Assembly (NCBI GenBank): GCA_031549365.1
Contig: JAVBPX010000001.1
Coordinates: forward strand, 130,417 to 194,416
Length of the DNA stretch: 64,000 nt
Source: Alphaproteobacteria bacterium
Lineage (GTDB): Bacteria; Pseudomonadota; Alphaproteobacteria; Rs-D84
Reading direction: 5' to 3'
A program made the translations under genes and the position numbers. The stretch's first letter is position 1. Each line of letters starts with the position of its first letter. Positions 842 to 27,298 of the stretch are shown one piece after another. The notes beneath the pieces were generated by a model. The model was not told the DNA's origin. It did no database searches and worked only from the letters and a program-made list of their open reading frames with translations.

Positions 842-2161
842 ATGTCCAAGCCATCAACATTTTTTCTGCAAACTTTTGGATGCCAAATGAATGTGTATGA
901 TGGCAAACGCATATCATCAATGTTGATCCAACACGGATTAAAACATGTTGAAAATGCAGCGGATGCGGATGTCATCATTTTAAATACTTGTTCTGTCCGG
1001 GAAAAGGCATCGGAAAAAATATTTTCAGCACTCGGCCGATTGGAAAAAATAAAATCAAAACGACAGAAATTAACAAAAAGGCCGGTAATTATGGGTATTG
1101 TCGGCTGCGTCGCACGCGAATCCGGCGCGAATGCCTTTCGCCGCCAACGGGCACTAAATTTTGTTTTGGGCCCCCAGAGCTATCATAAATTACCCGAAAT
1201 ATTATTGGATCCCGAAACACCATATTTGGATATTGATTTATCAGGGTTGGAAAAATTTAATGCCCTGCCCGCCGTTCACGAAAGCACGGCTGTTGGTTAT
1301 GTCCCGATCCAAGAAGGTTGCGACCACGTATGCACGTATTGCATTGTTCCATACACTCGCGGCCGCGAATTATCACGCGATATGATGGATATAATGGCCG
1401 AGATTGAACACCTGGCCCACCTGGGCGCAATGGAAATTTGTTTTTTGGGACAAAATGTAAATGGGTATCGCGGGCCAAACGGAAAAACATTGGCCGATTT
1501 AATTCGTGAAACTGCAAAAATACCAGCAATTAAACGAATTTGGTATACATCATCATATCCAACCGAAATGACGGATGAATTGATTGCAATGCACGGGACT
1601 GAACCAAAATTGTTACCAATTGTCCATTTGCCGCTTCAATCTGGGTCGCCCGCCGTTTTAAAACGAATGAACCGTCCGTACGATTTAAATCAATACATAT
1701 CAATTATTGAAAAATTACGCGCTGCACGATCCGATTTACAAATTTCATCCGATTTTATTGTTGGATTTCCTGGGGAAACGGACGACGATTTTAATGAAAC
1801 TGTAAATATCGTTAATAAAATTGGATACATAAATTCGTTCAGTTTTAAATATTCCAAACGTCCGCATACTGCTGCGGCATTAATGATGGATCAAATTCCT
1901 GAAAATATAAAATCGGTTCGTCTAAAAACATTGGACGGGATTTTAAACGAACAACAACGCGCTTTTAATCAATCATTAATTGGAAAAACTTTTTCATGTT
2001 TAATTGATCAAAACGGCAAACTTCCGAACCAAGTTATTGCCCGCACACCATACATGCAGCCCGTGATTTTGGATAATGCGAAACATTTAATGGGCAAATT
2101 GGTTAACGTTAAAATCACATCCGGAAACAAGAGTGCGTTAAGGGGGGATATCATAGAATGA
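842..2161 (+). CDS. miaB: tRNA-i6A37 methylthiotransferase MiaB (radical SAM)
   Basis: 439 aa. N-terminal MTTase domain 'FLQTFGCQMNVYD'. Radical SAM CxxxCxxC motif 'CDHVCTYCIVPY'. C-terminal TRAM-like region. Stop overlaps the next start (ATGA at 2158-2161). Confidence 0.9.
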   Translation: MSKPSTFFLQTFGCQMNVYDGKRISSMLIQHGLKHVENAADADVIILNTCSVREKASEKIFSALGRLEKIKSKRQKLTKRPVIMGIVGCVARESGANAFRRQRALNFVLGPQSYHKLPEILLDPETPYLDIDLSGLEKFNALPAVHESTAVGYVPIQEGCDHVCTYCIVPYTRGRELSRDMMDIMAEIEHLAHLGAMEICFLGQNVNGYRGPNGKTLADLIRETAKIPAIKRIWYTSSYPTEMTDELIAMHGTEPKLLPIVHLPLQSGSPAVLKRMNRPYDLNQYISIIEKLRAARSDLQISSDFIVGFPGETDDDFNETVNIVNKIGYINSFSFKYSKRPHTAAALMMDQIPENIKSVRLKTLDGILNEQQRAFNQSLIGKTFSCLIDQNGKLPNQVIARTPYMQPVILDNAKHLMGKLVNVKITSGNKSALRGDIIE

Positions 2162-4164
2162 CAACAACACACATAACAATAAATGACACTCGCTGGAAAA
2201 ACGCCAAACTTGATTTTGGCACAATTGTTAATCAAACGTTAAAGTATATGGGGCATAAAAAACCCGGGGCCGAGGTTTCAATCCTACTTACCAATGATTC
2301 CGAAATCCAAAAATTAAATTCTGAATATCGCGGCAAAAACAAACCAACAAACGTATTATCATTTGAAACTGGTGATGATATGATGCTGGGCGATATTGTA
2401 TTATCATATGATACAGTTGAACGCGAATCTATATCTGAACACAAATCTTTTAAAAATCATGCGACTCATCTAATTATCCACGGGGTATTACATTTATTGG
2501 GTTACGATCATATTGATGAAAATCAAGCCAATGAAATGGAGGGGTTGGAACAAAAAATCCTTAATACCATGAAAATTGCTGACCCGTATTCTGATAAACA
2601 CCGCAAATTGCCAAAATGGTTGCGCGGTTCATTATTATCATTTGGATTAATGTTGCTGGGTGCATTTACATCCCTTGGGTTTGCTCCAACAAATTTTATT
2701 TGGGCGTCGATTATCGGAATGATTGTTTATTACATTGTAATTTTTCCAAAACACGGATTTATAAATGGAATGAAAACCGGCTTTTGGTTTGGCGCAGGAT
2801 ACGCATTAACCATGTTATCATGGATGACATCATCATTTTTTGTTGACGCAACGGCGGCTGCAACATTTGGTCCATTATTACCACTGGCGTTAATGGGGAT
2901 TGGAATTGGTGGCGGAATTATATTTGGATTGCCTGCGGCACTGACAGCTATGACGCGCGAAACATCCTGGCGACATGCCGTGTTTTTTGCAACATTTTCA
3001 ACATTAATATTATGGGCCCGCGGTTGGATTCTTACTGGATTTCCCTGGAACCCGTTCGGCTTGGTTTTAATGCCATATGCAGCGATCGCAAATTCAATGT
3101 CTTTGATTGGATCATTGGGGCTTTCATTTTTGTTGATCGGTTTGTGTTCAGCAATTGGATTTATAATCGCCAAACGCATATATAAAATACCAGCCCGCAC
3201 AATGGATCAATTAATGGTATCTGTGTTTGCAATATTATTGTTTGCTTGTTCTTGCTATGGGGCATACCGCTTGAATATGGAATTACCAAAACCAATTGCA
3301 AATGTCCGTTTGGTCCAGGCCGCAATCCCACAACAATTCAAATGGGACCCAGAAATGGCAACTGATCACGTAAATAAACACATCATGCTGTCGAATTTAC
3401 CATCAAAAAATCATTTGGATGCCATAATTTGGCCGGAAAGCGCATATCCATTCGTACAATCAAAACCGGTCTTTTTGCCCGCTACCCAAACAAAAATGCG
3501 TGATAATATTTTAATCAGTGGCGCAATATTAAAATCAGATTCAAATTACTATAACGGATTAATTGTTGCGAACACATCTGGCAATATTATCCAAACATAT
3601 CAAAAACATCACTTGGTCCCATTTGGAGAATATAATCCATTTGAAATTATTGGGATGGGCGCATTGGTTCCAATGCCCGGGTCTTTTGGTTCAGGGAATG
3701 GTGTTAAGACGATTGAAACACCAACCTTTTCATTTGCCCCAGCAATCTGCTATGAAATAATTTTTTCAGGCGGAGTTATTGGCGATATAAAACCAAAAAT
3801 GATTTTAAACATCACAAATGATGGTTGGTTTGGAACAACGTCTGGGCCATACCAACATTTAAACTTGGCCATTGCACATGCAATTGAAACTGGAACTTCG
3901 GTTACACGTGTATCATATTCGGGAATATCCGCTGTAATTGATCCTGTTGGATATTTGGTAAACGGAGAACGTACAACCATCACCGACAGCGTAATTTCAA
4001 ACGATGTATCAAACAATATCCCACTACAACAAATGGGCGTGTTGGATGTTTATGTGCCGGGACCAATGTATGCACCGTATTTATGGGTCGGCCCACATAA
4101 AATGATGATATTGATTTTGTTATTGGTATTAATTACGACAAAAATTCGATTTAATCGGAAATAA
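2158..4164 (+). CDS. lnt: In-frame fusion ORF of endoribonuclease YbeY (N-terminal ~140 aa) and apolipoprotein N-acyltransferase Lnt (C-terminal ~520 aa)
   Basis: The N-terminal part has the YbeY zinc motif 'HGVLHLLGYDH'. From 'LRGSLLSFGLMLLGAFTSLGFAP' onward the sequence is Lnt-like: multi-TM N-terminus, then a nitrilase-fold domain with 'WPESAYPF' and 'ICYEIIF'. There is no stop codon between the two parts. Confidence 0.75.
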   Translation: MTTTHITINDTRWKNAKLDFGTIVNQTLKYMGHKKPGAEVSILLTNDSEIQKLNSEYRGKNKPTNVLSFETGDDMMLGDIVLSYDTVERESISEHKSFKNHATHLIIHGVLHLLGYDHIDENQANEMEGLEQKILNTMKIADPYSDKHRKLPKWLRGSLLSFGLMLLGAFTSLGFAPTNFIWASIIGMIVYYIVIFPKHGFINGMKTGFWFGAGYALTMLSWMTSSFFVDATAAATFGPLLPLALMGIGIGGGIIFGLPAALTAMTRETSWRHAVFFATFSTLILWARGWILTGFPWNPFGLVLMPYAAIANSMSLIGSLGLSFLLIGLCSAIGFIIAKRIYKIPARTMDQLMVSVFAILLFACSCYGAYRLNMELPKPIANVRLVQAAIPQQFKWDPEMATDHVNKHIMLSNLPSKNHLDAIIWPESAYPFVQSKPVFLPATQTKMRDNILISGAILKSDSNYYNGLIVANTSGNIIQTYQKHHLVPFGEYNPFEIIGMGALVPMPGSFGSGNGVKTIETPTFSFAPAICYEIIFSGGVIGDIKPKMILNITNDGWFGTTSGPYQHLNLAIAHAIETGTSVTRVSYSGISAVIDPVGYLVNGERTTITDSVISNDVSNNIPLQQMGVLDVYVPGPMYAPYLWVGPHKMMILILLLVLITTKIRFNRK

Positions 4165-17365: not shown

Positions 17366-17457
17366 GGAGAGGTGGCAGAGCCCGGTTGAATGCGCTCGAC
17401 TCGAAATCGAGTATACTGGCGACAGTATCGGGGGTTCGAATCCCCCCCTCTCCGCCA
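17366..17457 (+). tRNA. tRNA-Ser (anticodon CGA)
   Basis: Cloverleaf with acceptor GGAGAGG/CCTCTCC, long variable arm, anticodon stem ctcga/tcgag, loop 'ctCGAaa', T-loop GGTTCGAATCC. Discriminator G and CCA are encoded. Confidence 0.9.
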
Positions 17458-17512
17458 GACAAGATATTGATTTTACTACAATTTTTTACAAAATCGATAA
17501 CCCTTGAATTAT

Positions 17513-17535
17513 CCCCGGAATTCGGGGATTTTTTT
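17513..17535 (+). terminator. Rho-independent terminator downstream of tRNA-Ser
   Basis: 'ccccggaattcgggg' hairpin followed by a T7 run. Confidence 0.6.
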
Positions 17536-17672
17536 GATGCGATTTTAAGGTTATTGCAATGGTATGTGATTTAATATGTGAAAATACGGCGATATTTTGA
17601 TGTTTACATACAATGCCCGTTTTTGGCAGTGCACTGTTCATTGGTGCGAGGAAATTTTAAGGGAGTTTATTA

Positions 17673-17701
17673 TTGACTTTTTTGATGATTTGTGGTATAA
17701 T
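17673..17701 (+). promoter_or_regulatory. Consensus sigma70 promoter: -35 TTGACT, 17-bp spacer, extended -10 TGgTATAAT
   Basis: 'TTGACT tttttgatgatttgtgg TATAAT' at 17673-17701. Both hexamers match consensus perfectly with optimal spacing and a TG extension. Confidence 0.55.
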
Positions 17702-17714
17702 GCAGAGTATATTA

Positions 17715-17776
17715 GGACGGATTTTATCCGTCTTTTTTAATTTTAGTCCCGCTATTTTTGGCGGGGCTTTTTTTTA
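17715..17776 (+). terminator. Two tandem intrinsic-terminator hairpins in the leader (possible sRNA or attenuator)
   Basis: Hairpin 1 is 'gacgg attttat ccgtc' followed by T6. Hairpin 2 is 'gtcccgc tatttttg gcggggc' followed by T9. Both lie between the consensus promoter and the SD 'aagggag' of the ORF at 17795. Confidence 0.5.
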
Positions 17777-17794
17777 TATTTTTAAGGGAGTAAT

Positions 17795-18574
17795 ATGAAA
17801 AATAATTTTTTTAACGAACAATCTTTAAATTCTGATATTAAAACTCAGATTATCTTAGCTACATTTAAACTTTGGCTTCAAGACAATAAAAAGGAACAAA
17901 ATCTATCTTATATTGATCTATTTTCAGGGCCTGGCATATATGATGATGGAACATTATCTACACCGATATGTATTTTACAGGAAATTTGCAATAATAAGAG
18001 AATGGCACAGAGATTCAATGTGATCTTAAATGATTATAATGCAGAATTTATTGCAAAATTGCGTCGTATGATTTTGAATGTGAAAAATGCTAGGTTTATA
18101 AAAACTTTGGTTACTTCGATTGGTAATGCTGAAAGTTTTCAAAAGACCGTATCTAATAATGAACATATCTTCATGTTAATTGATCCTTGGGGATGGAAGG
18201 GTATAAATAGAAATTATATTAATAATATGTTATTAAATAAGGACTGTGATATTGCGGTGATGTTTAATTTTAATCAGTTTAATCGGTTTATGAATTTTGA
18301 TATCGCAGATGAATTGTTTAATGATTTGTTTGATAAAAAAACTTTGCACGAAATACGTAAATTTTGTAGCACAAATCCAAAATCGGAAAGAGAACAATTC
18401 GTGATAGATAAATTTGTGAAAATGGTTTGTAAAAATTGTGAAAATTGTAATTACACGCCATTTAAATTTAAGATGGAAAAATCGACGCGTACAAGCCATT
18501 ATATTATTTTTATAATTCGTGATAAAGATAGATTTCAAGCAACGAAAACTTTGTTAAATCAATACTTGGCTTGA
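17795..18574 (+). CDS. Hypothetical protein, candidate three-Cys-motif partner protein (TcmP-like) with a methyltransferase-like 'DLFSGPG' motif
   Basis: 259 aa. Good SD 'aagggag' 7 nt upstream. 'YIDLFSGPGIY' resembles SAM-MTase motif I and 'IDPWGWKG' is a possible motif-IV-like element. Directly upstream of a Gp37/Gp68 (DUF5131) gene. Confidence 0.5.
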   Translation: MKNNFFNEQSLNSDIKTQIILATFKLWLQDNKKEQNLSYIDLFSGPGIYDDGTLSTPICILQEICNNKRMAQRFNVILNDYNAEFIAKLRRMILNVKNARFIKTLVTSIGNAESFQKTVSNNEHIFMLIDPWGWKGINRNYINNMLLNKDCDIAVMFNFNQFNRFMNFDIADELFNDLFDKKTLHEIRKFCSTNPKSEREQFVIDKFVKMVCKNCENCNYTPFKFKMEKSTRTSHYIIFIIRDKDRFQATKTLLNQYLA

Positions 18575-18605
18575 AAAATAATATCGTTTCTGGCATAATG
18601 TGAAT

Positions 18606-19340
18606 ATGGCAGAAAAATCTAAACTTGAATGGACGGATGCAACGTGGAACCCAGTTGTTGGATGTACAAAGTACAGCGATGGGTGTATAAATTGTTATGC
18701 AAAACCAATTGCAGAACGTTTGTGTAGACAAGGAGTTTTTGGATACGAAAATGGTTTTAAAATGACATTGCGTCCAGAGCGTTTGGAAATTCCATTGCAT
18801 TGGAAAAAACCAAGATTAATATTTGTAGACTCCATGTGCGATTTATTTCACGATGATGTGCCATTAGAATATATTCAGAAAGTTTTTGCAATAATGAAGC
18901 GTGCAGATTGGCATGTTTATACCATATTAACAAAACGATCAAAGCGTTTGCGTGAATTGGCGTCAAACCTTGAATGGATGCCGCATGTTGTAATGGGTGT
19001 AACGATTGAATCCGATAAATATCGTGATAGGCTGGATGATTTGAAGGCTGTGCCTGCATATATGCGATATTTATCATTGGAGCCATTGTTGGGACCAATT
19101 AACCGATTGGATTTGGATGGAATTGATTGGGTTATTGCTGGTGGAGAATCCGGACCAAATGCACGGCAACTGGATACAAATTGGGTCAGAGAAATTCGCG
19201 ATTGGACATTGGAACAAAAAGCTGCGTTTTGGTTTAAACAGTATAGCGAGTATGGGGGACAGCATAAAGACCCTATTTTAGATGGGGAAAAATATAAGCA
19301 ATTTCCAGATTTTAAAACCGGAAAACCGAGTCTGTTTTAA
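18606..19340 (+). CDS. Phage Gp37/Gp68-family protein (DUF5131, three-Cys-motif protein)
   Basis: N-terminal 'KLEWTDATWNPVVGCTKYSDGCINCYA' matches the hallmark family start, a Cx6CxxC three-Cys motif right after 'WNP..GC'. The ATG at 18606 is preferred over the GTG at 18600. Confidence 0.6.
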   Translation: MAEKSKLEWTDATWNPVVGCTKYSDGCINCYAKPIAERLCRQGVFGYENGFKMTLRPERLEIPLHWKKPRLIFVDSMCDLFHDDVPLEYIQKVFAIMKRADWHVYTILTKRSKRLRELASNLEWMPHVVMGVTIESDKYRDRLDDLKAVPAYMRYLSLEPLLGPINRLDLDGIDWVIAGGESGPNARQLDTNWVREIRDWTLEQKAAFWFKQYSEYGGQHKDPILDGEKYKQFPDFKTGKPSLF

Positions 19341-19971: not shown

Positions 19972-21564
19972 ATGTCGGATAACAATGCCATTCATTGGGC
20001 GGATTTTATTGCAGAGCGAATAATTCGTGAAAAAGGCGATAAAGATTTATATACTTTGGCCAGCGGAATTACCCCGTCTGGGACAATTCATATTGGAAAA
20101 TTTCGCGAGATTATAACCACCGAATTGGTGTCCCGGGCGTTGGTTCGCATGGGGAAAAAGGTACGTTTTATTTATTCTTGGGATGATTATGATACTTTTC
20201 GCAAAGTGCCGGGCGATATGCCACAGCAAGAGATGTTAAAAGAATTATTGTATCAGCCGATTGTCGATATTCCAGATGTTTACGGAACAGAAAGTTCTTA
20301 TGCTCGGCATAACGAAGTGTCGTTGGAACGTATTGCTCCGGTATTGGGCATAACAAATATTGAATTTATTTATCAAAGTCGGATGTATCGTAGTGGCGAA
20401 TATAATGATTTGATTATAAAGGTTATGGATTCGCGAGATAAAATTCGTGATATTTTACAGACATCTAAAAGCCAGGGGATGGATGAAGAGTTTTATCCTA
20501 TTGCAACTTATTGCAGCAATTGCAATCGTGACCGAATTGTTTTTTCAAATTATAATACATCAGATAAAACAGTTGATTATAAGTGTAAGTTATGCAACCA
20601 CACGGAAAAGTTAAATTTACGCGATTCAAGGCGGCTGAAATTGCCTTGGCGAATTGATTGGCCAATGCGTTGGGCATTTGAAAATGTTGATTTTGAACCA
20701 GGTGGGACAGATCATTCTTCGGCTGGGGGCAGTTTTGATACCAGCAAAGTAATCGTTAGTGAGATTTTTGGAGGGGCGTCTCCGGTTTATGCAAAATATG
20801 CATTTGTATTGCCAAAGGGTGAAAGCAAAAAGATGTCTTCGTCAATTGGTAACGGGTTTTCTGTGGAAAGCGTTTTGCAGGTTTATGAACCAGAAATGAT
20901 ACGTTGGTTTTTTGCTTCGTATAAACCAGATGCGCAGTTCAGTATGGCTTTTGACATTGATGTTTTGAAGAATTACGAAGCATTTGACCGAATGGAACGC
21001 GTGGTTTATGGATTGGAAGATGTGAATGATGACAGGCGTGCAGTGCAGCGGCGTATTTATGAAATGTCTCAGATAAATTTTGATGGAAAGATTCCGGAAC
21101 AGATGCCTTTTCAGCCGAGTTTTAGGCACCTGTGTAATCAGTTGCAAATAAACGAATTTGATATCGAAAAAACCAGAGCATATTACGCCCACCAAATCAA
21201 AAATGACATCGATGAACAACGGTATCAAGAAAGGTCCAAATGCGCAGTATTTTGGATACAAAATTGTGCTTCGGATGATTTCAAACTTATATTGAATTCC
21301 GAAAAACGCAATGACATGACATTGTCGACAGATGAAAAAAAGTTCGTGAATGACTTGCACAAAATGTTGGAGATTGATTGGGACAATTTAGATGACGAAC
21401 GCGTCTTACAAAGTAAGGTCGGTGAATTAATTAAGGCCAACGGATTGGAAGTACTAAATGCGTATAAACTGTTATATCAGTTACTGGTCAATCGGGACCA
21501 AGGACCAAAGCTGGCCGGATTTATTTTGGGTATTGGCAAGGATAAGATTCTGAATTTGTTGTAA
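19972..21564 (+). CDS. lysK: Lysyl-tRNA synthetase, class I
   Basis: 530 aa. HIGH-type motif 'PSGTIHIGKFRE' and KMSKS-type motif 'KMSSSIGNG'. Architecture is typical of class I LysRS as found in alphaproteobacteria and archaea. Confidence 0.85.
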   Translation: MSDNNAIHWADFIAERIIREKGDKDLYTLASGITPSGTIHIGKFREIITTELVSRALVRMGKKVRFIYSWDDYDTFRKVPGDMPQQEMLKELLYQPIVDIPDVYGTESSYARHNEVSLERIAPVLGITNIEFIYQSRMYRSGEYNDLIIKVMDSRDKIRDILQTSKSQGMDEEFYPIATYCSNCNRDRIVFSNYNTSDKTVDYKCKLCNHTEKLNLRDSRRLKLPWRIDWPMRWAFENVDFEPGGTDHSSAGGSFDTSKVIVSEIFGGASPVYAKYAFVLPKGESKKMSSSIGNGFSVESVLQVYEPEMIRWFFASYKPDAQFSMAFDIDVLKNYEAFDRMERVVYGLEDVNDDRRAVQRRIYEMSQINFDGKIPEQMPFQPSFRHLCNQLQINEFDIEKTRAYYAHQIKNDIDEQRYQERSKCAVFWIQNCASDDFKLILNSEKRNDMTLSTDEKKFVNDLHKMLEIDWDNLDDERVLQSKVGELIKANGLEVLNAYKLLYQLLVNRDQGPKLAGFILGIGKDKILNLL

Positions 21565-21568
21565 TTCA

Positions 21569-22333
21569 TTACCTTTCTTGTATGTGCTTTCCCATAATGC
21601 ACTGGCGAGCGATGATTTTTTTGATGTTACTGCCGACAAGTTGCGATGTTAGAGGGCAATGATAGCTTTTTTTGAAATTTTCAGTGCATTGTTGTAAAGT
21701 TTCTGTAAAATTTGGTTTATAAAATTTTCCAATTTCTATACCCACAGGGGTGTTTTCAAGATTTCCCTTTGCTATTTCGTTATCAAAATTTTGTTTTGTA
21801 GTCGCAATTATATGTTTATTATCAGTGGTATGCAAGTGTGGTTCAGCCCTCTCCCATTGCGGTTGTGTAGATACAAATTTATCGGCCTCTTGCTTGTATG
21901 TTGAGTGTAATAGTGGACTATCTTTTAGTATTATTTTAGGTAAGTGCAACACCCATAAAATAATTCGAGCATATTGAAATTGCGATAATATGCAATCAGT
22001 TAATACGCATGAAGAACTCATAATTGACGGTAGAGAATCTTTAATGTTATTTGCAATGTATATGAGATCTGAAAGGCATTCTTTGTCTAGGCAAAATCCA
22101 AGGTGGTCAAAATCCTTTTGAAGGTCGTAATGCAGTTTCTTCATGTATTCAAGAAATTTTTTTTCTTGTTCGTGGTTGGATTTTTTTAGTAATATAAAAG
22201 TGTCAACATCTGAATTTGTTTTATCTTCACCTCGAGCAGTTGAGCCACATATAAATGAAAACTCTAGATTGTCTCCGAATATCTCTCGGGTATCTAAGTC
22301 CAATTGTTTTATCTGTTTTTTTGTTATTTTCAT
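21569..22333 (-). CDS. Pol-beta-superfamily nucleotidyltransferase domain protein (ANT/MNT-like), function unknown
   Basis: 254 aa. N-terminal NTase signature 'FICGSTARGEDKTNSDVDTFILL' (G[GS]x9-13Dx[DE]). The extreme C-terminus has an Rx6H element ('ARQCIMGKH') reminiscent of HEPN. Codon usage differs from core genes. Confidence 0.6.
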   Translation of the reverse strand: MKITKKQIKQLDLDTREIFGDNLEFSFICGSTARGEDKTNSDVDTFILLKKSNHEQEKKFLEYMKKLHYDLQKDFDHLGFCLDKECLSDLIYIANNIKDSLPSIMSSSCVLTDCILSQFQYARIILWVLHLPKIILKDSPLLHSTYKQEADKFVSTQPQWERAEPHLHTTDNKHIIATTKQNFDNEIAKGNLENTPVGIEIGKFYKPNFTETLQQCTENFKKSYHCPLTSQLVGSNIKKIIARQCIMGKHIQER

Positions 22334-22355
22334 TATTATTTACCAGTTGCTGTTT

Positions 22356-23813
22356 TTATAAGTATCTTACGATTTCTCTCTGAGGTAGAATTGGTTGTGG
22401 AGTAAATATGCCTTTGTAATAGATTCCAGATGCATGCTTTCCTATACCGCCATATGGTTTGTATCCATGCTCGAAATTGTGTAGATGGTCATTCACAAGT
22501 ATAGAGTCCGGCATATGGATTTTTTCATCATAAAGTATGGCTATTGTTTCTTCTTTTAATTTTCCATAAACTGTCAAAAACATAGCTGATTCTTTATATT
22601 TTGTATTTTTGAAATAGTTTATAAGTTCATTTTCTGAATCATAAGGTTGTATAAAGAATATTGGACAGAACAATTCTTCGTAATTAGCTCCTTCAGAGAG
22701 ATCCTTTACTATTACCGTAGGATATATCATATTTTTTGAAGCGTCTATAAGACCTCCATAATAAATATTCTTCCGATTGTTATAAATTAGTTTTGCAGCA
22801 TTTAATGCGTATCCATCTTTTGTATTAGGCATTATTATCGTGGATTTTTCAGGATTTGAATTACAGTTTTCATGAATTTCTTTTAATTTATTTATTAAAA
22901 TTTCTTGAAAATCTGTTAAACAATCTCTTTTCACAAGTAATGCATTTGGGGCGGCACAGTCTTGTCCTTGGTTGTATGTTCCAAGCTCGATACATGCTTC
23001 GACGGCTTCTTTGATATTTGACCGAAGATTTATTATAACCGGGTTTTGTCCAGCACCACCAAAGAAACAATATAACTCTTTGTTATACGATCTTTTTACT
23101 TTCTTCATGTTTTCATATGTACCTGTAAATATAAATGCCTTTATTTCATTTCGTGTAATATTGAGAAAATCCTCTCTTCCTCCATAGAATATTTCTATAT
23201 TTGGCATACTTGATAAATTTAACAATTTATCTAGCTCTTTAAAAACGTCTTGAGAATCATTTGGATATCTAACATATACTTTCTTACAAATATACGATGG
23301 AACAAGAGCAAAACAAACAAAGGAATACAGCAATTGGTTTAAAGGCATAAATGACGCGATTGGTGCTTTCTCTTTTAAAAAGTATTCCTTATTTATGGTA
23401 AGATTTGTAAGAAGGTCTATTGATCTATCAATTTCATCACATATTGTATTATAGGTGGCATATGATGAAAGAGCTTTATAGATATCTTCTCTGCGCTGAT
23501 TTAATTGAAACGAAAAATTGAGCGCGTCTGTTAAAATTTTATCAAAGTCTAGATTATTTTCCACGTCTTTTTTAGAAATATTTGTTCTTTGTCCAAACCA
23601 AGAGCCAATTTCCTTTTTACTGAGTTTCTCTGTTTTTACTATAAGCCCTAAGTCATTTTTTTCATACTCCAGGCTGAGATTGTTAATATTGTGGAGTATA
23701 TTATCTTTAGCTTTTGTATCCATCTCATCAAATTTGAGGATAAAAGTCAGCCCATTTTTATCTTGTAAAATGGTTCCAATAGGCTGTTTCTTTTTCCTTA
23801 CTATGAAGTCCAT
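22356..23813 (-). CDS. Divergent aldehyde dehydrogenase superfamily protein (catalytic Cys kept, general-base Glu replaced)
   Basis: 485 aa. ALDH motifs present: 'FTGTYENMKKV' (NAD-binding F-T-G-S-T-like), 'NQGQDCAAPNALLVKRD' (Cys motif F-x-N-x-GQ-x-C), 'EELFCPI' (EEIFGPV-like). The 'ELGGKSP' position reads 'FFGGAGQNP', so the Glu is absent. Confidence 0.6.
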   Translation of the reverse strand: MDFIVRKKKQPIGTILQDKNGLTFILKFDEMDTKAKDNILHNINNLSLEYEKNDLGLIVKTEKLSKKEIGSWFGQRTNISKKDVENNLDFDKILTDALNFSFQLNQRREDIYKALSSYATYNTICDEIDRSIDLLTNLTINKEYFLKEKAPIASFMPLNQLLYSFVCFALVPSYICKKVYVRYPNDSQDVFKELDKLLNLSSMPNIEIFYGGREDFLNITRNEIKAFIFTGTYENMKKVKRSYNKELYCFFGGAGQNPVIINLRSNIKEAVEACIELGTYNQGQDCAAPNALLVKRDCLTDFQEILINKLKEIHENCNSNPEKSTIIMPNTKDGYALNAAKLIYNNRKNIYYGGLIDASKNMIYPTVIVKDLSEGANYEELFCPIFFIQPYDSENELINYFKNTKYKESAMFLTVYGKLKEETIAILYDEKIHMPDSILVNDHLHNFEHGYKPYGGIGKHASGIYYKGIFTPQPILPQREIVRYL

Positions 23814-23844
23814 ATTTTCTCCTTGATTAATGTGGACCTTAAGT

Positions 23845-25344
23845 TTATCTCAACTTTATTTTTTTTAACATGGGAAATGTTAAAACATCTCTGATATTAG
23901 ATGAGTTTGTTAACATCATGGCGAGGCGATCTGCACCTATTCCCATGCCTCCTGTAGGGGGCATACCGTATTCTAAAGCTGTAAGAAAGGCTTCATCCAT
24001 TTGCATTGCTTCAGGATCATCTGAAAGAGATGCTTGTTCTTCGAATTTTTTTCTTTGATCTATTGGATTTGATAATTCTGAGTAAGCTTCACCAAATTCA
24101 ATGCCGCCAACATAGAGCATAAATCTTTCAGAAAGACGTGGGTTTTGTCGATGTATTTTTGTCAGCGGAGATATATCATATGGAACATCCATTACGAAAG
24201 TTGGTTGAATAAGAGTTTTTTCGACTTTTTCTTCAAATATAGTTTCTACTACTTTACCCCAAGATTCAGTTCCCTTGAGTCGAATTTTGTGTTTTTGGGC
24301 AATGCTATGAATTTCCCTATCGCTCATGTTTATAAGATCTTCGTTCAGCGCTTCTGATGCTGCGTCTACCATTGGTAATCTTTTAAATGGTTTTTCAAGG
24401 TCTATTAAGGCATCTTTCCAAGTAATGTGGAGAGAGCTGTTGACAGCCATAGATGAATCTCGCAGCAATCTTTCTGCGAGAATCATCATGTCAAAATAGT
24501 CTTTATAAGAGCCATATATATCTAGCATTGTGAATTCTGGACTGTGGCGATTATCAATACCTTCATTGCGGAAATTTTTACCAATTTCAAACACTCGAGG
24601 AATGCCTCCAACAATGAGCCGCTTTAGTTCAAGTTCAGATGCTATCCTGAGATAAAAATCGTCTTTAAGAGAATTATAATGTGTAGTAAATGGAGCAGCA
24701 TTTGCACCGGCTTTTACTGGGTGAAGTATAGGTGTTTCTACCTCTATATATCCCTCATCGTGCATTACTTCGCGTATAGCATACATTGCTTTCGCCCTAT
24801 TGAGAACAACATCCCGAGAGTTTTTGTTTACTATAAGATCTACGGATTTATTGCGGTATCTTTCTTCGGAGTCTGTTAGACCGTGGTATTTTTCAGGAAG
24901 AATATTCAATGATTTTGACAGCATTGTTACTTCCAGAGGAGTAACAGAAACTGCTCCTCGCAAAGTTTTTTTAATTCCTCCCAAAACACCAATTATATCA
25001 CCAATGTCAAGATTTTTAAGCATGTTATTAAATTGTGTATCTGCTTTTGGATTTTCATTGCAAATTTGAATTTTTCCGGATTCATCTTCAACATCGATGA
25101 ACATTCCGGAATTTCGGATTGCCATAATTCTTCCTGCAATTTTTACAATGTCTTTTGTATCCGCTGTCTTTTCACCAGGTTGAAGGTGGCCAAATTCAGC
25201 TATTATATTACTGGCAAGATGCGTTGGTTTGTATATGTGTGGATATGCGTTTATTCCTTGAGATTCGATGTCTTTAAGTTTTTGAATCCTTATTTCTTTT
25301 AAAGAATTTATTGGTGTCTTATTATCTTTTTTTTGATTTTGCAT
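23845..25344 (-). CDS. lysS: Lysyl-tRNA synthetase, class II (full length, with N-terminal anticodon-binding OB fold)
   Basis: 499 aa. Class II motif 1 'RVFEIGKNFRNEG', motif 2 'HSPEFTMLDIY', motif 3 'GGMGIGADRLAMMLT'. N-terminal OB-fold region 'KIAGRIMAIRNSGMFIDVEDESGKIQICNE'. AGA/AGG/GGA/ACA-rich codon usage unlike neighbouring core genes. Confidence 0.85.
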   Translation of the reverse strand: MQNQKKDNKTPINSLKEIRIQKLKDIESQGINAYPHIYKPTHLASNIIAEFGHLQPGEKTADTKDIVKIAGRIMAIRNSGMFIDVEDESGKIQICNENPKADTQFNNMLKNLDIGDIIGVLGGIKKTLRGAVSVTPLEVTMLSKSLNILPEKYHGLTDSEERYRNKSVDLIVNKNSRDVVLNRAKAMYAIREVMHDEGYIEVETPILHPVKAGANAAPFTTHYNSLKDDFYLRIASELELKRLIVGGIPRVFEIGKNFRNEGIDNRHSPEFTMLDIYGSYKDYFDMMILAERLLRDSSMAVNSSLHITWKDALIDLEKPFKRLPMVDAASEALNEDLINMSDREIHSIAQKHKIRLKGTESWGKVVETIFEEKVEKTLIQPTFVMDVPYDISPLTKIHRQNPRLSERFMLYVGGIEFGEAYSELSNPIDQRKKFEEQASLSDDPEAMQMDEAFLTALEYGMPPTGGMGIGADRLAMMLTNSSNIRDVLTFPMLKKIKLR

Positions 25345-25366
25345 AGATATACCTTTTTATACTTTT

Positions 25367-25439
25367 TGGGGGGCGGTCCGGATTTGAACCGTACCTCTGA
25401 GGGAAAACTCAGCGTTCTGCCTAATTATACTACCCGCCC
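25367..25439 (-). tRNA. Aberrant tRNA-like element (degenerate cloverleaf, 6-nt anticodon loop TTTTCC). Either a pseudo-tRNA or a non-canonical tRNA.
   Basis: Minus-strand sequence GGGCGGGTAGTATAATTAGGCAGAACGCTGAGTTTTCCCTCAGAGGTACGGTTCAAATCCGGACCGCCCCCCA. Canonical T-loop GGTTCAAATCC. Acceptor 6/7 pairs. 3' C-CCA encoded. Anticodon stem CTGAG/CTCAG with only 6 loop nt. D-stem and T-stem each carry a mismatch. Confidence 0.4.
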
Positions 25440-25522
25440 TATAATTGTGATGAAGTGATCCCATCAACTTATCATTGTTTATGTCAAAAGCAATTTAAAT
25501 GTCAATAATTATTTTTTGTTAT

Positions 25523-26644
25523 TTATTTGTTATTTAATATAATTAATGGCACTTGCATTTCGGATGCTGTCCCGCCTGCATGTTCAGATGCTGGTGAGCC
25601 AAACTCTTCCCAAGCTTTTTGATTTTGATGCAATGATTTGTTTCCTATTCCAATTGCGACATAGTCCCCGATTGATTCATCTTCCAGCACTCTATTCTTG
25701 GCAGAATACCAGTGAAGGTAGTTTGTTTTAAAAGTTTCCTTATTGATCAGCAAAAAATCTTTCTCCGAAAATATTTCATAAAATATTCTTTCAAAGCTAT
25801 TTTTAGCCTCTGGTTTTACGAAAAATTGTGTACAACGCGCCTCACATGAAATCGGCATTATCAGAGTGTCAGCAATACCCGTAAAATCTTCGATAAATAA
25901 GGGCAAAGTATCAATATGACCGTGATCAGCAGTTATGATGAATAATGTATCTGGGCAATTATTTTGCAAATTTATTATTGCATCTCGTATATTGCAGATA
26001 CAATTTCTGGCTTCGCCAGACAAAATTCCGTGATCATGGTTAGTGCTATCTGGCTCCGGCCAATACGCGTATATGTAATTTTTATTGGCATTTTTTGTAT
26101 TTGCTATTTTTTCAATAGTTGAACACCATTTCTCAACTGTATTATGCTCTGGTGTAATAAACTGAGGCATAACCTCAAAAGCGCTCCATTCGGAAATATC
26201 ATTGATTTGGTCAACAAGTAATGCTGGCATTTTTTCCAACGGAGGCTTCGTAAGATGAGATGATTCACCACTATAAAAGTCACAATTAGTAAAATTTTCG
26301 ACAATCTCTCCAGATTCTTTATAATATTGCGACCATCCCAATAACCCATGTGATACAGGCAACAGCCCCGTGCGCAAAGTTGTTGTGGCGGCAACCGTAG
26401 TAGAAGGAACTATTGTATCAATAGTATCATATTTGTTTTTATAAAAATAGTCTGTCACAGAATCGCTTAATACATCCAGCTGTTCTGTCCCCATTCCGTC
26501 TAGGACTATAAGAGCTATGTTTTTGTACACTTCCGATGACCACGAATTTATGATCATTGGATGCGACTCATAATTTGGACATAGTCCAACAATTTTTTGT
26601 ATTGCAGATGTTATTGATGTTATATCGTATTTCATGAGGTACAT
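25523..26644 (-). CDS. Alkaline-phosphatase-superfamily protein (type I phosphodiesterase / nucleotide pyrophosphatase-like)
   Basis: 'IALIVLDGMGTEQLDV' metal-site region and 'FIITADHGHID' match the AlkP/NPP family. Start placed at the first ATG ('MYLMKYD'). The ORF track extends to a TTG at 26671. Confidence 0.7.
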   Translation of the reverse strand: MYLMKYDITSITSAIQKIVGLCPNYESHPMIINSWSSEVYKNIALIVLDGMGTEQLDVLSDSVTDYFYKNKYDTIDTIVPSTTVAATTTLRTGLLPVSHGLLGWSQYYKESGEIVENFTNCDFYSGESSHLTKPPLEKMPALLVDQINDISEWSAFEVMPQFITPEHNTVEKWCSTIEKIANTKNANKNYIYAYWPEPDSTNHDHGILSGEARNCICNIRDAIINLQNNCPDTLFIITADHGHIDTLPLFIEDFTGIADTLIMPISCEARCTQFFVKPEAKNSFERIFYEIFSEKDFLLINKETFKTNYLHWYSAKNRVLEDESIGDYVAIGIGNKSLHQNQKAWEEFGSPASEHAGGTASEMQVPLIILNNK

Positions 26645-27298
26645 ATTAGCAATGACATATCTTGAAGTCAACCGCGTATTTGGTTGAAAGTTGAGCGGAA
26701 TTCTAGTTTCGTGGGAATATTGGTTGTTTTTATGTTTTGGTAATGAATTTTCATTGTTATTTAAAATAAATTCCCTGTTAGGGTTTTAGGGAATTTGGGG
26801 TGATGTGGGTAGTGGATGCCGCGGTGTGGTTGGGGTTGTGAATTTGGGACCAATTGGTAAAATGCGATTTTAGGGGCAAAACCACAAAATTTCCCTGTAA
26901 ATTCCCTGATGTTGTTTGTGTGATTAATTTTGCTGTGTGGAATCGCGTAACCTTGCGATGCACACATCAATTCCGTGCTAATAACGCACGTCATTGTGTG
27001 TTTATATGCTCGGTTTCCCTGATAATCGGTTGGATGTTGGTGGGGTGTTGGATTATTCGGGGAAATAATCGGGATAAGTGATTTATGAGGTGTTTATCAT
27101 GTTTAGTATGCTCTACACCAATAACATTTACACCTCCGCCAGAATTGGCCGTTTTATTTTTATCCGCGCGCGGCCCCGAAAACTCGCGGCTTTACTTTTT
27201 ATTTTCACAGTGGTATGGTGATTTATATCAAAAATCTGCAGATTTGGTTCTCCTTACATACGATTACCATTTTTGCACTGTGAACTTTGGGGGCTGTT

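What the first reader, a model, noticed from the sequence alone, without database searches (positions are those of the whole stretch)
22356..23813. ALDH-superfamily protein with catalytic Cys retained but the general-base glutamate replaced
Seen in sequence:
- The ALDH fingerprints are present: 'NQGQDCAAP' (F-x-N-x-GQ-x-C), 'EELFCPI' (EEIFGPV) and 'FTGTYENMKKV' (FTGST).
- The 'ELGGKSP' block reads 'FFGGAGQNP', so the Glu that activates water for thioester hydrolysis is absent.
- The N-terminal ~200 aa are highly diverged.

Established knowledge says ALDH-fold enzymes lacking that Glu are typically CoA-acylating or acyl-reducing members (LuxC, PduP or EutE types) that release an aldehyde or transfer an acyl group rather than hydrolysing it.

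Inference: together with the NTase and LysRS-II neighbours, the protein could handle an activated acyl or aminoacyl intermediate.
Basis: partly seen in the sequence, partly recalled or inferred. Interest (0 to 1): 0.55.

Follow-up and report, generated by a model that had tools for sequence, protein, structure and literature searches.

The report
Lysyl-tRNA-linked ALDH-like reductase operon
The gene encodes an aldehyde-dehydrogenase-like enzyme from an undescribed family that is repeatedly fused or adjacent to lysyl-tRNA synthetases and odd tRNA-Lys-like genes, so it probably turns tRNA-bound lysine into an aldehyde rather than oxidising ordinary aldehydes.

Summary

It is not a housekeeping ALDH, and it does not group with the LuxC, PduP or ProA subfamilies. 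It belongs to an uncharacterised clade of at least 412 clusters at 50% identity. Members are fused to class I LysRS in both orders, to a class II LysRS-like body with a degenerate core, or to only the tRNA-binding half of LysRS-I. Some are fused to a small nucleotidyltransferase.

In the window it sits in a tight operon: aberrant tRNA-Lys-like gene, accessory LysRS-II, ALDH-like, nucleotidyltransferase. The operon abuts the native, Rickettsiales-type LysRS-I. Three distant loci also place an aberrant tRNA-Lys-like gene 2-25 nt before the first gene of the ALDH-like gene's transcription unit.

Best reading, inferred and not shown: a lysyl-tRNA reductase that works like glutamyl-tRNA reductase or LuxC. 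Cys286 would take lysine from the tRNA as a thioester, and NAD(P)H would release lysine aldehyde. I found no description of this family in the searchable literature.

The parts
25368..25440 (-). tRNA-Lys-like gene: 6-nt anticodon loop UUUUCC, weak D stem, mismatched or short T stem. One register gives GGGCGG../..CCGCCC-C-CCA. It lies 23 nt upstream of the LysRS-II start codon.
   Evidence: ARAGORN calls it 'tRNA-?(Lys|Glu)(tt)'. Rfam tRNA scores 28.6 bits, just under the gathering score of 29. Sequence. The MFE fold is not a clean cloverleaf (z -1.7). Analogous aberrant tRNA-Lys-like genes precede the ALDH-like transcription unit in L086, L003 and L082.
23845..25344 (-). Class II lysyl-tRNA synthetase (499 aa), probably an accessory or acquired copy that charges the tRNA-like RNA.
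   Evidence: NCBIfam PRK00484 596 bits (cut-off 468) and Pfam tRNA-synt_2 273 bits plus the OB anticodon domain. Nearest relatives are only 59-62% identical, then about 50% to mixed lineages. GC is 0.36 against about 0.39 for the window.
22356..23813 (-). ALDH-superfamily protein (485 aa). It has Cys286, Asn159 and Glu380, and Gly252 at the general-base Glu position. Residues 1-75 form an extra N-terminal domain. Proposed lysyl-tRNA (aminoacyl-ester) reductase.
21569..22333 (-). Minimal (Pol-beta/KNTase-type) nucleotidyltransferase, 254 aa, motif GSTARGEDKTNSDVD. A recurrent partner of the ALDH-like family; its role is unknown.
   Evidence: Pfam NTP_transf_2 31 bits and Polbeta 28.8 bits. jackhmmer finds homologues beside the ALDH-like gene in 16 of the fetched loci and fused to it in L036. 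NTase fusions also occur in P0015, P0217 and P0181.
19972..21564 (+). Class I lysyl-tRNA synthetase (530 aa), most likely the native housekeeping enzyme. It is convergent with the operon: its stop lies 4 nt from the NTase stop. Whether it takes part in the system is uncertain.
   Evidence: TIGR00467 478 bits. A dense series of relatives at 68-74% identity, several of which (68-72%) NCBI names Rickettsiales bacterium. Elsewhere the ALDH-like family is fused or adjacent to LysRS-I.

Best explanation
The gene belongs to an uncharacterised clade of ALDH-fold enzymes that have lost the water-activating Glu. These enzymes work on the product of lysyl-tRNA synthetase.

In this window the minus-strand operon reads: tRNA-Lys-like RNA, accessory LysRS-II, ALDH-like, NTase.

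Proposed mechanism (inferred, not shown):
1. LysRS-II loads lysine onto the dedicated tRNA-like carrier, whose deformed anticodon loop should keep it out of translation.
2. Cys286 of the ALDH-like enzyme attacks the aminoacyl ester. This releases the tRNA and forms a lysyl-thioester, stabilised by the Asn159 oxyanion hole.
3. With no Glu to activate water, the thioester is not hydrolysed. NAD(P)H reduces it to a thiohemiacetal, which collapses to L-lysine aldehyde (2,6-diaminohexanal).

This is the chemistry of glutamyl-tRNA reductase and of LuxC with LuxE, carried out on an ALDH scaffold. The NTase acts on the product, the enzyme or the RNA in a way not yet clear.

Confidence by step:
- Functional coupling to LysRS or tRNA-Lys: about 0.75.
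- Substrate is the tRNA ester rather than Lys-AMP: about 0.55.
- Reductive release of an aldehyde: about 0.45.
For: (1) Active site. Cys286, Asn159, G231, E380 and P384 are invariant, and F382 is at least 90% conserved. The Glu268-equivalent column is Asn in at least 90% of relatives and Gly in the window. The ALDH fold is predicted with confidence.

(2) Fusions, in independent forms:
- LysRS-I(N)+ALDH-like(C): 962 aa in Photorhabdus L014, 984 aa in Pseudomonas L019, 1483 aa in P0105.
- ALDH-like(N)+full LysRS-I(C): 989 aa in Saccharibacteria L057.
- Overlapping separate genes in Kibdelosporangium L006.
- ALDH-like + OB anticodon domain + class II core in P0129. It aligns end to end with the window LysRS-II (30% identity, E 4e-52), but motif 2 'FRNE' reads 'VGNV'.
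- ALDH-like + only the post-catalytic half of LysRS-I in CPR bacteria: P0030 461-689 matches LysRS-I 300-530 (E 1e-12); P0066 matches at E 4e-6.
- The fused LysRS-I domains keep 'PHIG' and 'KISKS'.

(3) Adjacency. Of 164 loci, 50 have a full LysRS-I within 1.5 kb and 3 have LysRS-II directly upstream.

(4) tRNA genes. Within 3 kb of the ALDH-like gene, 8 of 16 tRNA genes are Lys or Lys-like, and all 6 tRNA-Lys genes in the loci lie there. Four are aberrant and sit 2-25 nt before the first CDS: window UUUUCC, L086 UCAUUUG, L003 UUCUUUA, L082 UUUUUUG.

(5) Neighbours that use aldehydes or activated acyls:
- class III aminotransferase and SDR in L001
- NTase + opine-dehydrogenase-like protein in L084
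- PLP-enzyme, SDR/epimerase and GNAT fusions
- a distant branch (29% identity, E 2e-51, 'FFG-SGLNP') always next to a class I adenylate-forming enzyme and a ThDP enzyme on Bacillus and Streptomyces plasmids.

(6) In the window, LysRS-I looks native and LysRS-II looks accessory. That fits an orthogonal charging pair.
Against: - No biochemical data exist. Everything beyond fold and residues is guilt by association.
- The ALDH Lys192-equivalent is not conserved (an adjacent Arg182 is). The second Gly of GxxxxG is Ala in most relatives and Met in the window, so NAD(P)H binding is plausible but unproven.
- The window protein departs from the family at two near-invariant positions (N252 to G, H256 to Q).
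- The window tRNA-like scores below the Rfam threshold and does not give a cloverleaf as its MFE fold.
- Most loci, including all gamma-proteobacterial and actinomycete loci, have no dedicated tRNA gene.
- The closest LysRS-II relatives have neither a tRNA-like gene nor an ALDH-like gene.
- Free lysine aldehyde has no obvious use, especially in CPR bacteria, where the gene sits among housekeeping genes.
- The role of the NTase is unexplained.
Confidence: 0.45

Rival explanations
1. Aminoacyl (lysyl) transferase. Cys286 takes lysine from Lys-tRNA or Lys-AMP as a thioester. It then passes lysine to an amine or hydroxyl acceptor (small molecule, lipid, protein or nucleotide) instead of reducing it. 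The nucleotide site would be structural or regulatory.
For: The same LysRS and tRNA associations as the main model. Loss of the hydrolytic Glu also suits transfer to a non-water nucleophile. Solved ALDH variants with bound amide products appear among the structural neighbours (PHBDD entries). GNAT and PLD fusions exist.
Against: The cofactor-site residues E380, F382 and G231 are conserved across the family, which argues for redox chemistry. Recurrent neighbours are aldehyde-using enzymes: omega-type aminotransferase, opine-DH-like, SDR and ThDP enzyme. No acceptor is identifiable.
Confidence: 0.15
2. The tRNA-like element is a cis-acting leader (a tRNA mimic that regulates or stabilises the lysS-ALDH mRNA), and the ALDH-like protein is a regulatory or editing accessory of LysRS or a pseudoenzyme. 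No lysine aldehyde is made.
For: The tRNA-like genes lie 2-25 nt before the first CDS with no terminator between them. CPR copies lie among housekeeping genes: DnaK, DnaJ, TrpRS, AspRS. B. cereus has a LysRS1/LysRS2-charged tRNA-like RNA with a regulatory role (PMC2916919).
Against: Catalytic Cys, oxyanion Asn and cofactor residues are invariant across very distant lineages. An editing hydrolase would need the water-activating base that is missing. Three of the four tRNA-likes encode CCA and fold as cloverleaves, as expected for chargeable RNAs.
Confidence: 0.1
3. Toxin-antitoxin or defence-type module. The ALDH-like enzyme destroys Lys-tRNA (reductive deacylation as a translation-arresting toxin), and the minimal NTase is an antitoxin that nucleotidylates it, as MntA does to HepT.
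For: The NTase has weak matches to MntA antitoxin (NCBIfam, E 2e-4) and to PADLOC candidate PDC-S09 (E 9.5e-10). The operon has low GC, and a PADLOC candidate pair (DUF5131 + TcmP-like) lies nearby. L083 sits beside an integrase and a primase-polymerase (Prim-Pol) gene.
Against: The ALDH-like protein has no PADLOC hit. Fusion to catalytically intact LysRS-I would be a futile cycle. Most members lack an NTase. The family is widely and stably present in CPR housekeeping contexts.
Confidence: 0.07
4. CoA-acylating aldehyde dehydrogenase or acyl-CoA/acyl-protein reductase of the LuxC, PduP or EutE kind, with the LysRS neighbours coincidental.
For: The general-base Glu is lost. Several relatives give weak LuxC Pfam hits of 24-27 bits.
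Confidence: 0.05
5. Oxidative direction. The enzyme oxidises an amino aldehyde with NAD(P)+ and transfers the resulting acyl-thioester to the 3' end of tRNA-Lys (ATP-independent aminoacylation) or to another acceptor.
For: Chemically allowed for a Glu-less ALDH with a bound tRNA acceptor. The tRNA-binding modules are fused.
Against: There is no source of lysine aldehyde in these contexts. Fusion to LysRS domains that keep HIGH/KMSKS-type motifs implies ATP-driven charging upstream. Neighbours consume aldehydes rather than make them.
Confidence: 0.04
6. An ordinary NAD(P)-dependent aldehyde dehydrogenase with a housekeeping or detoxifying role.
For: ALDH fold and Pfam Aldedh hit.
Against: The general base is absent family-wide. 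Scores against all named ALDH equivalogs are ten-fold below their cut-offs. LysRS fusions are conserved.
Confidence: 0.02

Closest known systems
Glutamyl-tRNA reductase (HemA/GluTR)
   Same: Proposed chemistry is the same: an active-site Cys attacks an aminoacyl-tRNA ester, a thioester forms, and NADPH reduces it to an alpha-amino aldehyde. This describes GluTR from established knowledge; it was not tested here. A class III aminotransferase follows the ALDH-like gene in L001, and the enzyme that follows GluTR, HemL, is also of that class (the HemL comparison is from my own knowledge).
   Different: The fold is unrelated: GluTR is not an ALDH, and no GluTR family was hit. The amino acid is lysine, not glutamate. 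Here the reductase is fused to the synthetase or its tRNA-binding half, and in four loci it has its own aberrant tRNA gene.
LuxC-LuxE fatty-acid reductase (acyl-protein synthetase plus ALDH-superfamily reductase)
Gamma-glutamyl phosphate reductase (ProA) and CoA-acylating ALDHs (PduP/EutE)
   Same: ALDH-superfamily members that work on activated acyl groups without the hydrolytic step.
Carboxylic acid reductases, Lys2 and NRPS terminal R domains
   Same: The logic is to adenylate an (amino) acid, hold it as an ester or thioester on a carrier, and reduce it with NAD(P)H to an (amino) aldehyde. The Bacillus and Streptomyces branch of the family pairs with an ANL adenylating enzyme.
   Different: Those use a phosphopantetheinyl carrier and an SDR-fold R domain. 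Here the carrier would be tRNA, or the enzyme Cys directly, and the reductase is ALDH-fold.
B. cereus tRNA-Other with LysRS1 plus LysRS2
   Same: A bacterium carrying both LysRS classes and an odd tRNA-like RNA that is lysine-charged outside normal translation (PMC2916919).
   Different: That paper mentions no ALDH-like or NTase partner. tRNA-Other is described as regulating TrpRS1 expression. Here the tRNA-like gene is part of an operon with an ALDH-like enzyme.
Class 3-type hydrolytic aldehyde dehydrogenases (for example ALDH3A1, S. aureus AldH 6k0z)
   Same: Best sequence and structure matches. They share Cys, oxyanion Asn, the EEIFGP-type Glu and the PFGG-type motif.
   Different: The general-base Glu is missing. 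Identity is only 13-19%. The protein has extra N- or C-terminal tRNA-related modules and an LysRS-linked context.

Membership tests
ALDH superfamily (Pfam PF00171 fold) | Sequence match above the Pfam gathering score, and the two-Rossmann-type-domain ALDH fold | tested here: met
ALDH superfamily | Catalytic Cys (ALDH2 Cys302) and oxyanion-hole Asn (Asn169) | tested here: met
   Cys286 and Asn159 align to them and are invariant in 76 relatives.
Hydrolytic (non-acylating) NAD(P)+ aldehyde dehydrogenases | General-base Glu (ALDH2 Glu268) in the 'ELGGKSP' block | tested here: not met
   Gly252 in the window and Asn in at least 90% of the family. No conserved acidic residue nearby.
Hydrolytic ALDHs / any named ALDH equivalog | Score above an NCBIfam equivalog cut-off | tested here: not met
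   Best score 57 bits; the cut-offs of all 25 models listed are at least 500 bits.
NAD(P)-dependent ALDH-fold enzymes | Cofactor-site residues (Gly245, Glu399, Phe401, Lys192 equivalents) | tested here: inconclusive
   G231 and E380 are invariant and F382 is at least 90% conserved. The Lys192 equivalent is Tyr183 and variable, with Arg182 conserved next to it. The second Gly of GxxxxG is Ala in most relatives and Met in the window. No ligand modelling was possible.
LuxC acyl-CoA/acyl-protein reductase (PF05893) | Pfam LuxC match, and closest structural similarity to LuxC | tested here: not met
CoA-acylating ALDH (PduP/EutE type) | Family match and microcompartment or CoA-pathway context | tested here: not met
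Glutamyl-tRNA reductase | GluTR fold and domains | tested here: not met
   Only Aldedh was found by Pfam and the fold is ALDH. The resemblance is mechanistic only.
Proposed LysRS-linked ALDH-like clade (undescribed) | Signature xNG(A/S)GHNP, YNQGQDCAAPN and PYGGxGxxAS, plus fusion or adjacency to LysRS, tRNA-Lys or NTase | tested here: met
   The window has GGAGQNP (two deviations), YNQGQDCAAPN and PYGGIGKHAS. It lies between LysRS-II and an NTase, with a tRNA-Lys-like gene and LysRS-I nearby. It matches 76 relatives at E 3.5e-100 to 5e-51.
Canonical elongator tRNA-Lys (for the RNA at 25368-25440) | Rfam tRNA at or above the gathering score; 7-nt anticodon loop with U33 and purine 37 | tested here: not met
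   28.6 bits against 29. 6-nt loop UUUUCC. ARAGORN cannot assign an anticodon.
Lysine--tRNA ligase class II (gene 23845-25344) | NCBIfam PRK00484 above cut-off; OB anticodon domain plus class II core | tested here: met
   596 bits against 468. Pfam tRNA_anti-codon and tRNA-synt_2.
Aminoacyl-tRNA reductase activity (function, not family) | NAD(P)H-dependent conversion of Lys-tRNA to lysine aldehyde | not testable with these tools
   Requires enzymology.

The most novel reading that the evidence does not exclude
The operon is a tRNA-dependent pathway to a lysyl-adenylate mimic.

Proposed steps:
1. The orthogonal LysRS-II and tRNA-like pair supplies Lys-tRNA.
2. The ALDH-like enzyme reduces it to lysinal, and perhaps on to lysinol.
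3. The KNTase/ANT-like NTase, which is fused to the ALDH-like domain in P0015, L036, P0217 and P0181, adenylylates the product. This would give an aminoalkyl adenylate.

Aminoalkyl adenylates are a classic class of potent aminoacyl-tRNA-synthetase inhibitors (my own knowledge, not tested here). Carrying two LysRS of different classes would then give both supply and self-protection. The broader family would be a previously unseen route from aminoacyl-tRNA to amino-aldehyde warheads in Photorhabdus, Xenorhabdus, Pseudomonas, actinomycetes and CPR epibionts.
Probability: 0.1. Interest if true: 0.9.

Novelty: new variant of a known kind. Interest (0 to 1): 0.78.

Why it matters
If the main reading holds, this would be a second kind of aminoacyl-tRNA reductase, after glutamyl-tRNA reductase. 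It would have arisen independently on an ALDH scaffold.

It would also be the first reported non-translational job for class I LysRS paralogues. Two reviews checked (PMC9437257, 2022; PMC12945691, 2026) list none.

It would add a new class of dedicated, translation-incompetent tRNA-like carriers. It would open a family of more than 400 sequence clusters in insect and plant pathogens, antibiotic-producing actinomycetes and CPR bacteria to direct testing.

It would also give synthetic biology a compact route from an amino acid to an amino aldehyde.

Tried and rejected
- PADLOC: no hit for the ALDH-like protein, either LysRS or the phosphodiesterase-like gene.
- Promoter and terminator scans of 19.5-27.5 kb found no more sites than in shuffled sequence, so they are uninformative.
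- A direct-repeat search for island att sites next to tRNA-Ser found nothing, so island borders remain undefined.
- The phosphodiesterase-like gene 25523-26671 has no counterpart beside any homologue (tblastn). I did not count it as part of the system.
- The nearest LysRS-II relatives (59-62% identity; L169-L172) were checked for tRNA-like and ALDH-like genes, and none was present. LysRS-II clade membership therefore does not predict the system.
- Rfam at E<=1 on L001, L083 and L084, and ARAGORN on all loci, found no tRNA-like gene at the aminotransferase-linked and opine-DH-linked members.
- Eight literature searches were run: seven looked for LysRS plus ALDH, aminoacyl-tRNA reductase or tRNA-dependent amino aldehyde, and one for the B. 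cereus tRNAOther precedent. None gave a description of this family. One candidate paper (PMC13149037) proved unrelated.
- The organism name could not be recovered from exact-sequence look-ups.
Full report
**1. The observation**

The finding's coordinates delimit a real ORF, but on the minus strand: 22356..23813, ATG start, 485 aa.
- FTGTYENMKKV, aa 229-239
- FFGGAGQNP, aa 250-258
- NQGQDCAAP, aa 281-289
- EELFCPI, aa 379-385

Pfam places the protein in the ALDH family at 68 bits (cut-off 23), but only over aa 220-415. Against NCBIfam, the best of 36 named ALDH models scores 57 bits. The cut-offs of the 25 models listed are all at least 500 bits.

HMM alignments to solved ALDHs (6k0z, 4qgk) align three key residues:
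- Asn159 with the oxyanion-hole Asn
- Cys286 with the catalytic Cys
- Gly252 with the Glu of 'LELGGKSP'

In alignments of 29 and 76 relatives, that Glu column is Asn in at least 90% of sequences. Invariant residues are N159, G231, N257, P258, N281-G283, D285, C286, E380 and P384. F382 is at least 90% conserved. The only acidic residue nearby in the window protein, E246, is not listed among the conserved columns.

The statement that the N-terminal ~200 aa are highly diverged needs refining. Residues 1-75 form a separate small beta-beta-alpha-beta-beta-alpha domain. About 370 residues of the model then superpose on ALDH structures.

**2. The neighbourhood in the window**

The gene sits in a tight minus-strand array:

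| Feature | Coordinates | Gap to next |
|---|---|---|
| tRNA-like gene | 25368-25440 | 23 nt |
| Class II LysRS | 23845-25344 | 31 nt |
| ALDH-like gene | 22356-23813 | 22 nt |
| Minimal nucleotidyltransferase | 21569-22333 | - |

- The class II LysRS scores 596 bits to PRK00484 (cut-off 468).
- The nucleotidyltransferase matches NTP_transf_2 and Polbeta and carries the motif GSTARGEDKTNSDVD.
- A class I LysRS (19972-21564, plus strand, TIGR00467 478 bits) ends 4 nt from the NTase stop.

The rest of the window is ordinary bacterial chromosome: MiaB, a YbeY-Lnt reading frame, ThrRS, oligopeptidase A, GluRS, SecD/SecF, FtsK and Lon.

The class I LysRS has a dense series of relatives at 68-74% identity. 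NCBI names several of these, at 68-72% identity, as Rickettsiales bacterium MAGs. It is therefore most likely the native housekeeping enzyme of a Rickettsiales-like alphaproteobacterium. That alphaproteobacteria commonly use class I LysRS is established knowledge.

The class II LysRS has only three relatives at 59-62%, then about 50% to mixed lineages. GC falls to 0.32-0.36 over the operon, against about 0.39 elsewhere. I therefore read the class II enzyme as an accessory, probably acquired copy. That is an inference.

**3. The family and its partners**

A search of 5.8 billion proteins returned 77 hits, 76 at E 5e-51 or better (one of them the window protein itself). None carries a functional name beyond 'aldehyde dehydrogenase family'. 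JGI calls several CPR members 'lysyl-tRNA synthetase class 1'. A profile search of 1.84 billion cluster representatives gave 412 clusters at E<=1e-30, with lengths of 258-1483 aa among the 150 listed.

Genome and metagenome scans fetched 160 loci. They come from:
- Photorhabdus, Xenorhabdus, Brenneria and Pseudomonas
- Saccharothrix, Kibdelosporangium, Crossiella and Streptosporangium
- Cytophagales
- many CPR lineages

The domain architectures are the key result:

| Architecture | Examples |
|---|---|
| LysRS-I(N) + ALDH-like(C), one polypeptide | L014 962 aa; L019 984 aa; P0105 1483 aa |
| ALDH-like(N) + full LysRS-I(C), then an overlapping NTase gene | L057 989 aa |
| Overlapping but separate LysRS-I and ALDH-like genes | L006 |
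| ALDH-like + OB anticodon domain + class II core | P0129 892 aa |
| ALDH-like + only the post-catalytic half of LysRS-I | CPR proteins of about 600-690 aa (P0030, P0066) |

- The fused class I domains keep the 'PHIG' and 'KISKS' signature motifs.
- P0129 aligns end to end with the window LysRS-II (30% identity, E 4e-52), but its motif 2 'FRNE' reads 'VGNV'.
- P0030 residues 461-689 match LysRS-I 300-530 (E 1e-12). P0066 527-612 matches 450-530 (E 4e-6). The majority consensus of the 76-sequence alignment includes this extension.

By plain tblastn, 50 of 164 loci have a full LysRS-I within 1.5 kb of the ALDH-like gene and 3 have LysRS-II directly upstream.

Fusion to both structurally unrelated LysRS classes, and to tRNA-binding parts that lack a working catalytic core, points to tRNA-Lys or Lys-tRNA as the shared ligand, not to a protein-protein accident. 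This is inference from domain architecture.

**4. tRNA genes**

ARAGORN over all loci found 16 tRNA genes within 3 kb of the ALDH-like gene. Eight are tRNA-Lys or Lys-like. All six tRNA-Lys genes present anywhere in the loci are among them.

Four are canonical tRNA-Lys genes in CPR genomes (L145, L038, L064, L117). The other four are aberrant, and each lies just upstream of the first CDS:

| Locus | Anticodon loop | Notes | Gap to first CDS |
|---|---|---|---|
| Window | UUUUCC (6 nt) | - | 23 nt |
| L086 | UCAUUUG | followed by LysRS-II then ALDH-like, as in the window | 19 nt |
| L003 (Saccharibacteria) | UUCUUUA | LysRS-II::DUF2000 divergent | 25 nt |
| L082 | UUUUUUG | T-loop UCC instead of UUC | 2 nt |

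- All four accompany the stand-alone, roughly 485-505-aa subfamily that carries the extra N-terminal domain.
- Three fold as cloverleaves whose anticodon stem can extend to leave a 5-nt loop.
- Three encode CCA.
- The window copy is the weakest. Rfam scores it at 28.6 bits against a gathering score of 29, its MFE fold is not a cloverleaf, and its acceptor and T-arm register is ambiguous.
- A U-rich loop containing UUU fits LysRS recognition of the anticodon. The deformed loops and a pyrimidine at position 37 argue against ribosomal use. Both points rest on general tRNA knowledge and were not tested here.

**5. Other recurrent partners**

Homologues of the NTase lie beside the ALDH-like gene in 16 of the fetched loci. 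These span the window's own contig, Cytophagales and several CPR lineages; some rows may be the same sequence from different samples. The NTase is fused to the ALDH-like gene in L036, P0015, P0217 and P0181.

Other neighbours or fusion partners:
- a 700-aa PLP enzyme (L001, L083; fused in P0202 and P0137)
- a class III omega-type aminotransferase, an SDR and a HAD phosphatase (L001)
- an NTase + Rossmann + opine-dehydrogenase-like protein (L084)
- a GNAT, an SDR/epimerase and a PLD domain

A more distant branch shares 29% identity with the window protein (E 2e-51) and reads 'FFG-SGLNP' and 'NSGQDC'. On Bacillus cereus-group and Streptomyces plasmids it sits next to a ThDP enzyme and a class I adenylate-forming enzyme, within clusters that include NRPS/PKS-type or other secondary-metabolism genes.

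The common theme is an adenylating enzyme upstream and aldehyde- or amine-handling enzymes downstream.

**6. Mechanism proposed**

Shown here:
- an ALDH fold
- the nucleophile Cys and oxyanion Asn retained
- the nicotinamide-side residues (G231, E380, F382) retained
- the water-activating Glu lost
- physical fusion or adjacency to LysRS and tRNA-Lys(-like) genes

Inferred:
1. The accessory LysRS-II charges the tRNA-like carrier.
2. Cys286 attacks the ester and forms a lysyl-thioester.
3. NAD(P)H reduces the thioester to lysine aldehyde.
4. Downstream enzymes, where present, aminate, reduce, acetylate or nucleotidylate the product.

This is the chemistry of glutamyl-tRNA reductase and the logic of LuxE with LuxC.

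Weak points:
- Lys192-equivalent is not conserved, so cofactor binding is unproven.
- The window protein deviates at N252 and H256.
- Most members have no dedicated tRNA.
- Neither the NTase's role nor the fate of the product is known.
- CPR copies sit among housekeeping genes (DnaK, DnaJ, a small membrane protein, a histidine kinase, TrpRS, AspRS), where a secondary-metabolite role is not obvious.

**7. Comparison with known systems**

The co-occurrence of both LysRS classes with an odd lysine-chargeable tRNA-like RNA has a precedent in B. cereus tRNA-Other (PMC2916919), but no ALDH partner is described there.

A review of aaRS paralogues (PMC9437257) lists no class I LysRS paralogue and does not mention aldehydes or reductases. 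A review of aminoacyl-tRNA-dependent natural-product enzymes (PMC12945691) contains none of the terms aldehyde, lysyl, reductase or Lys-tRNA. Seven further full-text searches found nothing on this family. The library excludes most subscription journals, so absence is not proof.

**8. Verdict**

The protein is a member of an apparently undescribed, widespread clade of LysRS-linked ALDH-like enzymes. The window shows one of its most complete forms, with its own tRNA-Lys-like gene, an accessory LysRS-II and an NTase.

I rate it a new variant of a known kind: an ALDH-superfamily acyl reductase, functionally a second type of aminoacyl-tRNA reductase. Interest is high because the hypothesis is specific and can be tested directly in vitro.

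Noticed in passing
window 25368-25440 (-): tRNA-Lys-like gene with a 6-nt anticodon loop (UUUUCC), 23 nt upstream of the LysRS-II start. Rfam tRNA scores 28.6 bits, just under threshold. Two alternative acceptor/T-arm registers are possible, and only one gives an encoded CCA.
   Followed up: yes
window 19972-21564 (+) and 23845-25344 (-): Both structural classes of lysyl-tRNA synthetase lie within 5.4 kb. Class I looks native (68-74% identity to its nearest relatives, several named Rickettsiales MAG proteins). Class II looks accessory (best 62%).
   Followed up: yes
window 17366-19340 (+): tRNA-Ser(cga) is followed by a TcmP-like protein (17795-18574) and a DUF5131 protein (18600-19340). This pair matches PADLOC candidate systems PDC-M30 and PDC-M41 (312 bits). 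Small ORFs, one DUF488-like, follow. No att-type direct repeat was found.
   Followed up: partly
window 2158-4164 (+): A single 668-aa reading frame combines YbeY (rRNA maturation RNase) and Lnt (apolipoprotein N-acyltransferase).
   Followed up: no
window 22000-26000: GC drops to 0.32-0.36 over the NTase, ALDH-like and LysRS-II genes, against about 0.39 elsewhere. This suggests horizontal acquisition.
   Followed up: partly
L167 8896-13120 and L168 8881-13415 (Bacillus thuringiensis and Streptomyces plasmids): A conserved triad: ALDH-like (29% identical to the window protein, also without the Glu), a ThDP-binding enzyme and a class I adenylate-forming enzyme. In L167 they lie beside NRPS and ketosynthase-like genes; L168 has other secondary-metabolism-type neighbours.
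   Followed up: partly
L082 12478-12667 (-): A T-box-like leader (44 bits, below the gathering score of 93) lies upstream of a 453-aa protein with no Pfam hit. The same contig carries a tRNA-Lys-like gene, an ALDH-like gene and lysine-pathway-like genes (homocitrate-synthase-like, DapF-like, M20 peptidase).
   Followed up: no
L003 7751-9718 (-); proteins P0288, P0313, P0324: Class II LysRS fused at its C terminus to a DUF2000 domain. In L003 it is divergent from the tRNA-Lys-like and ALDH-like pair.
   Followed up: no
L169, L170, L172 (6001 onward): In three of the four loci fetched for the closest relatives of the window LysRS-II, the gene heads an operon: lysS, radical SAM enzyme, a second class II aaRS-like protein and a Peptidase_S66 (MccF/LD-carboxypeptidase family). 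This may be an EF-P lysylation-like or aminoacyl-nucleotide-related set.
   Followed up: no
L084 6018-7955 (+): A 645-aa protein combining an NTase domain, a P5CR/F420-type Rossmann domain and an opine-dehydrogenase helical domain lies directly upstream of an ALDH-like gene.
   Followed up: partly
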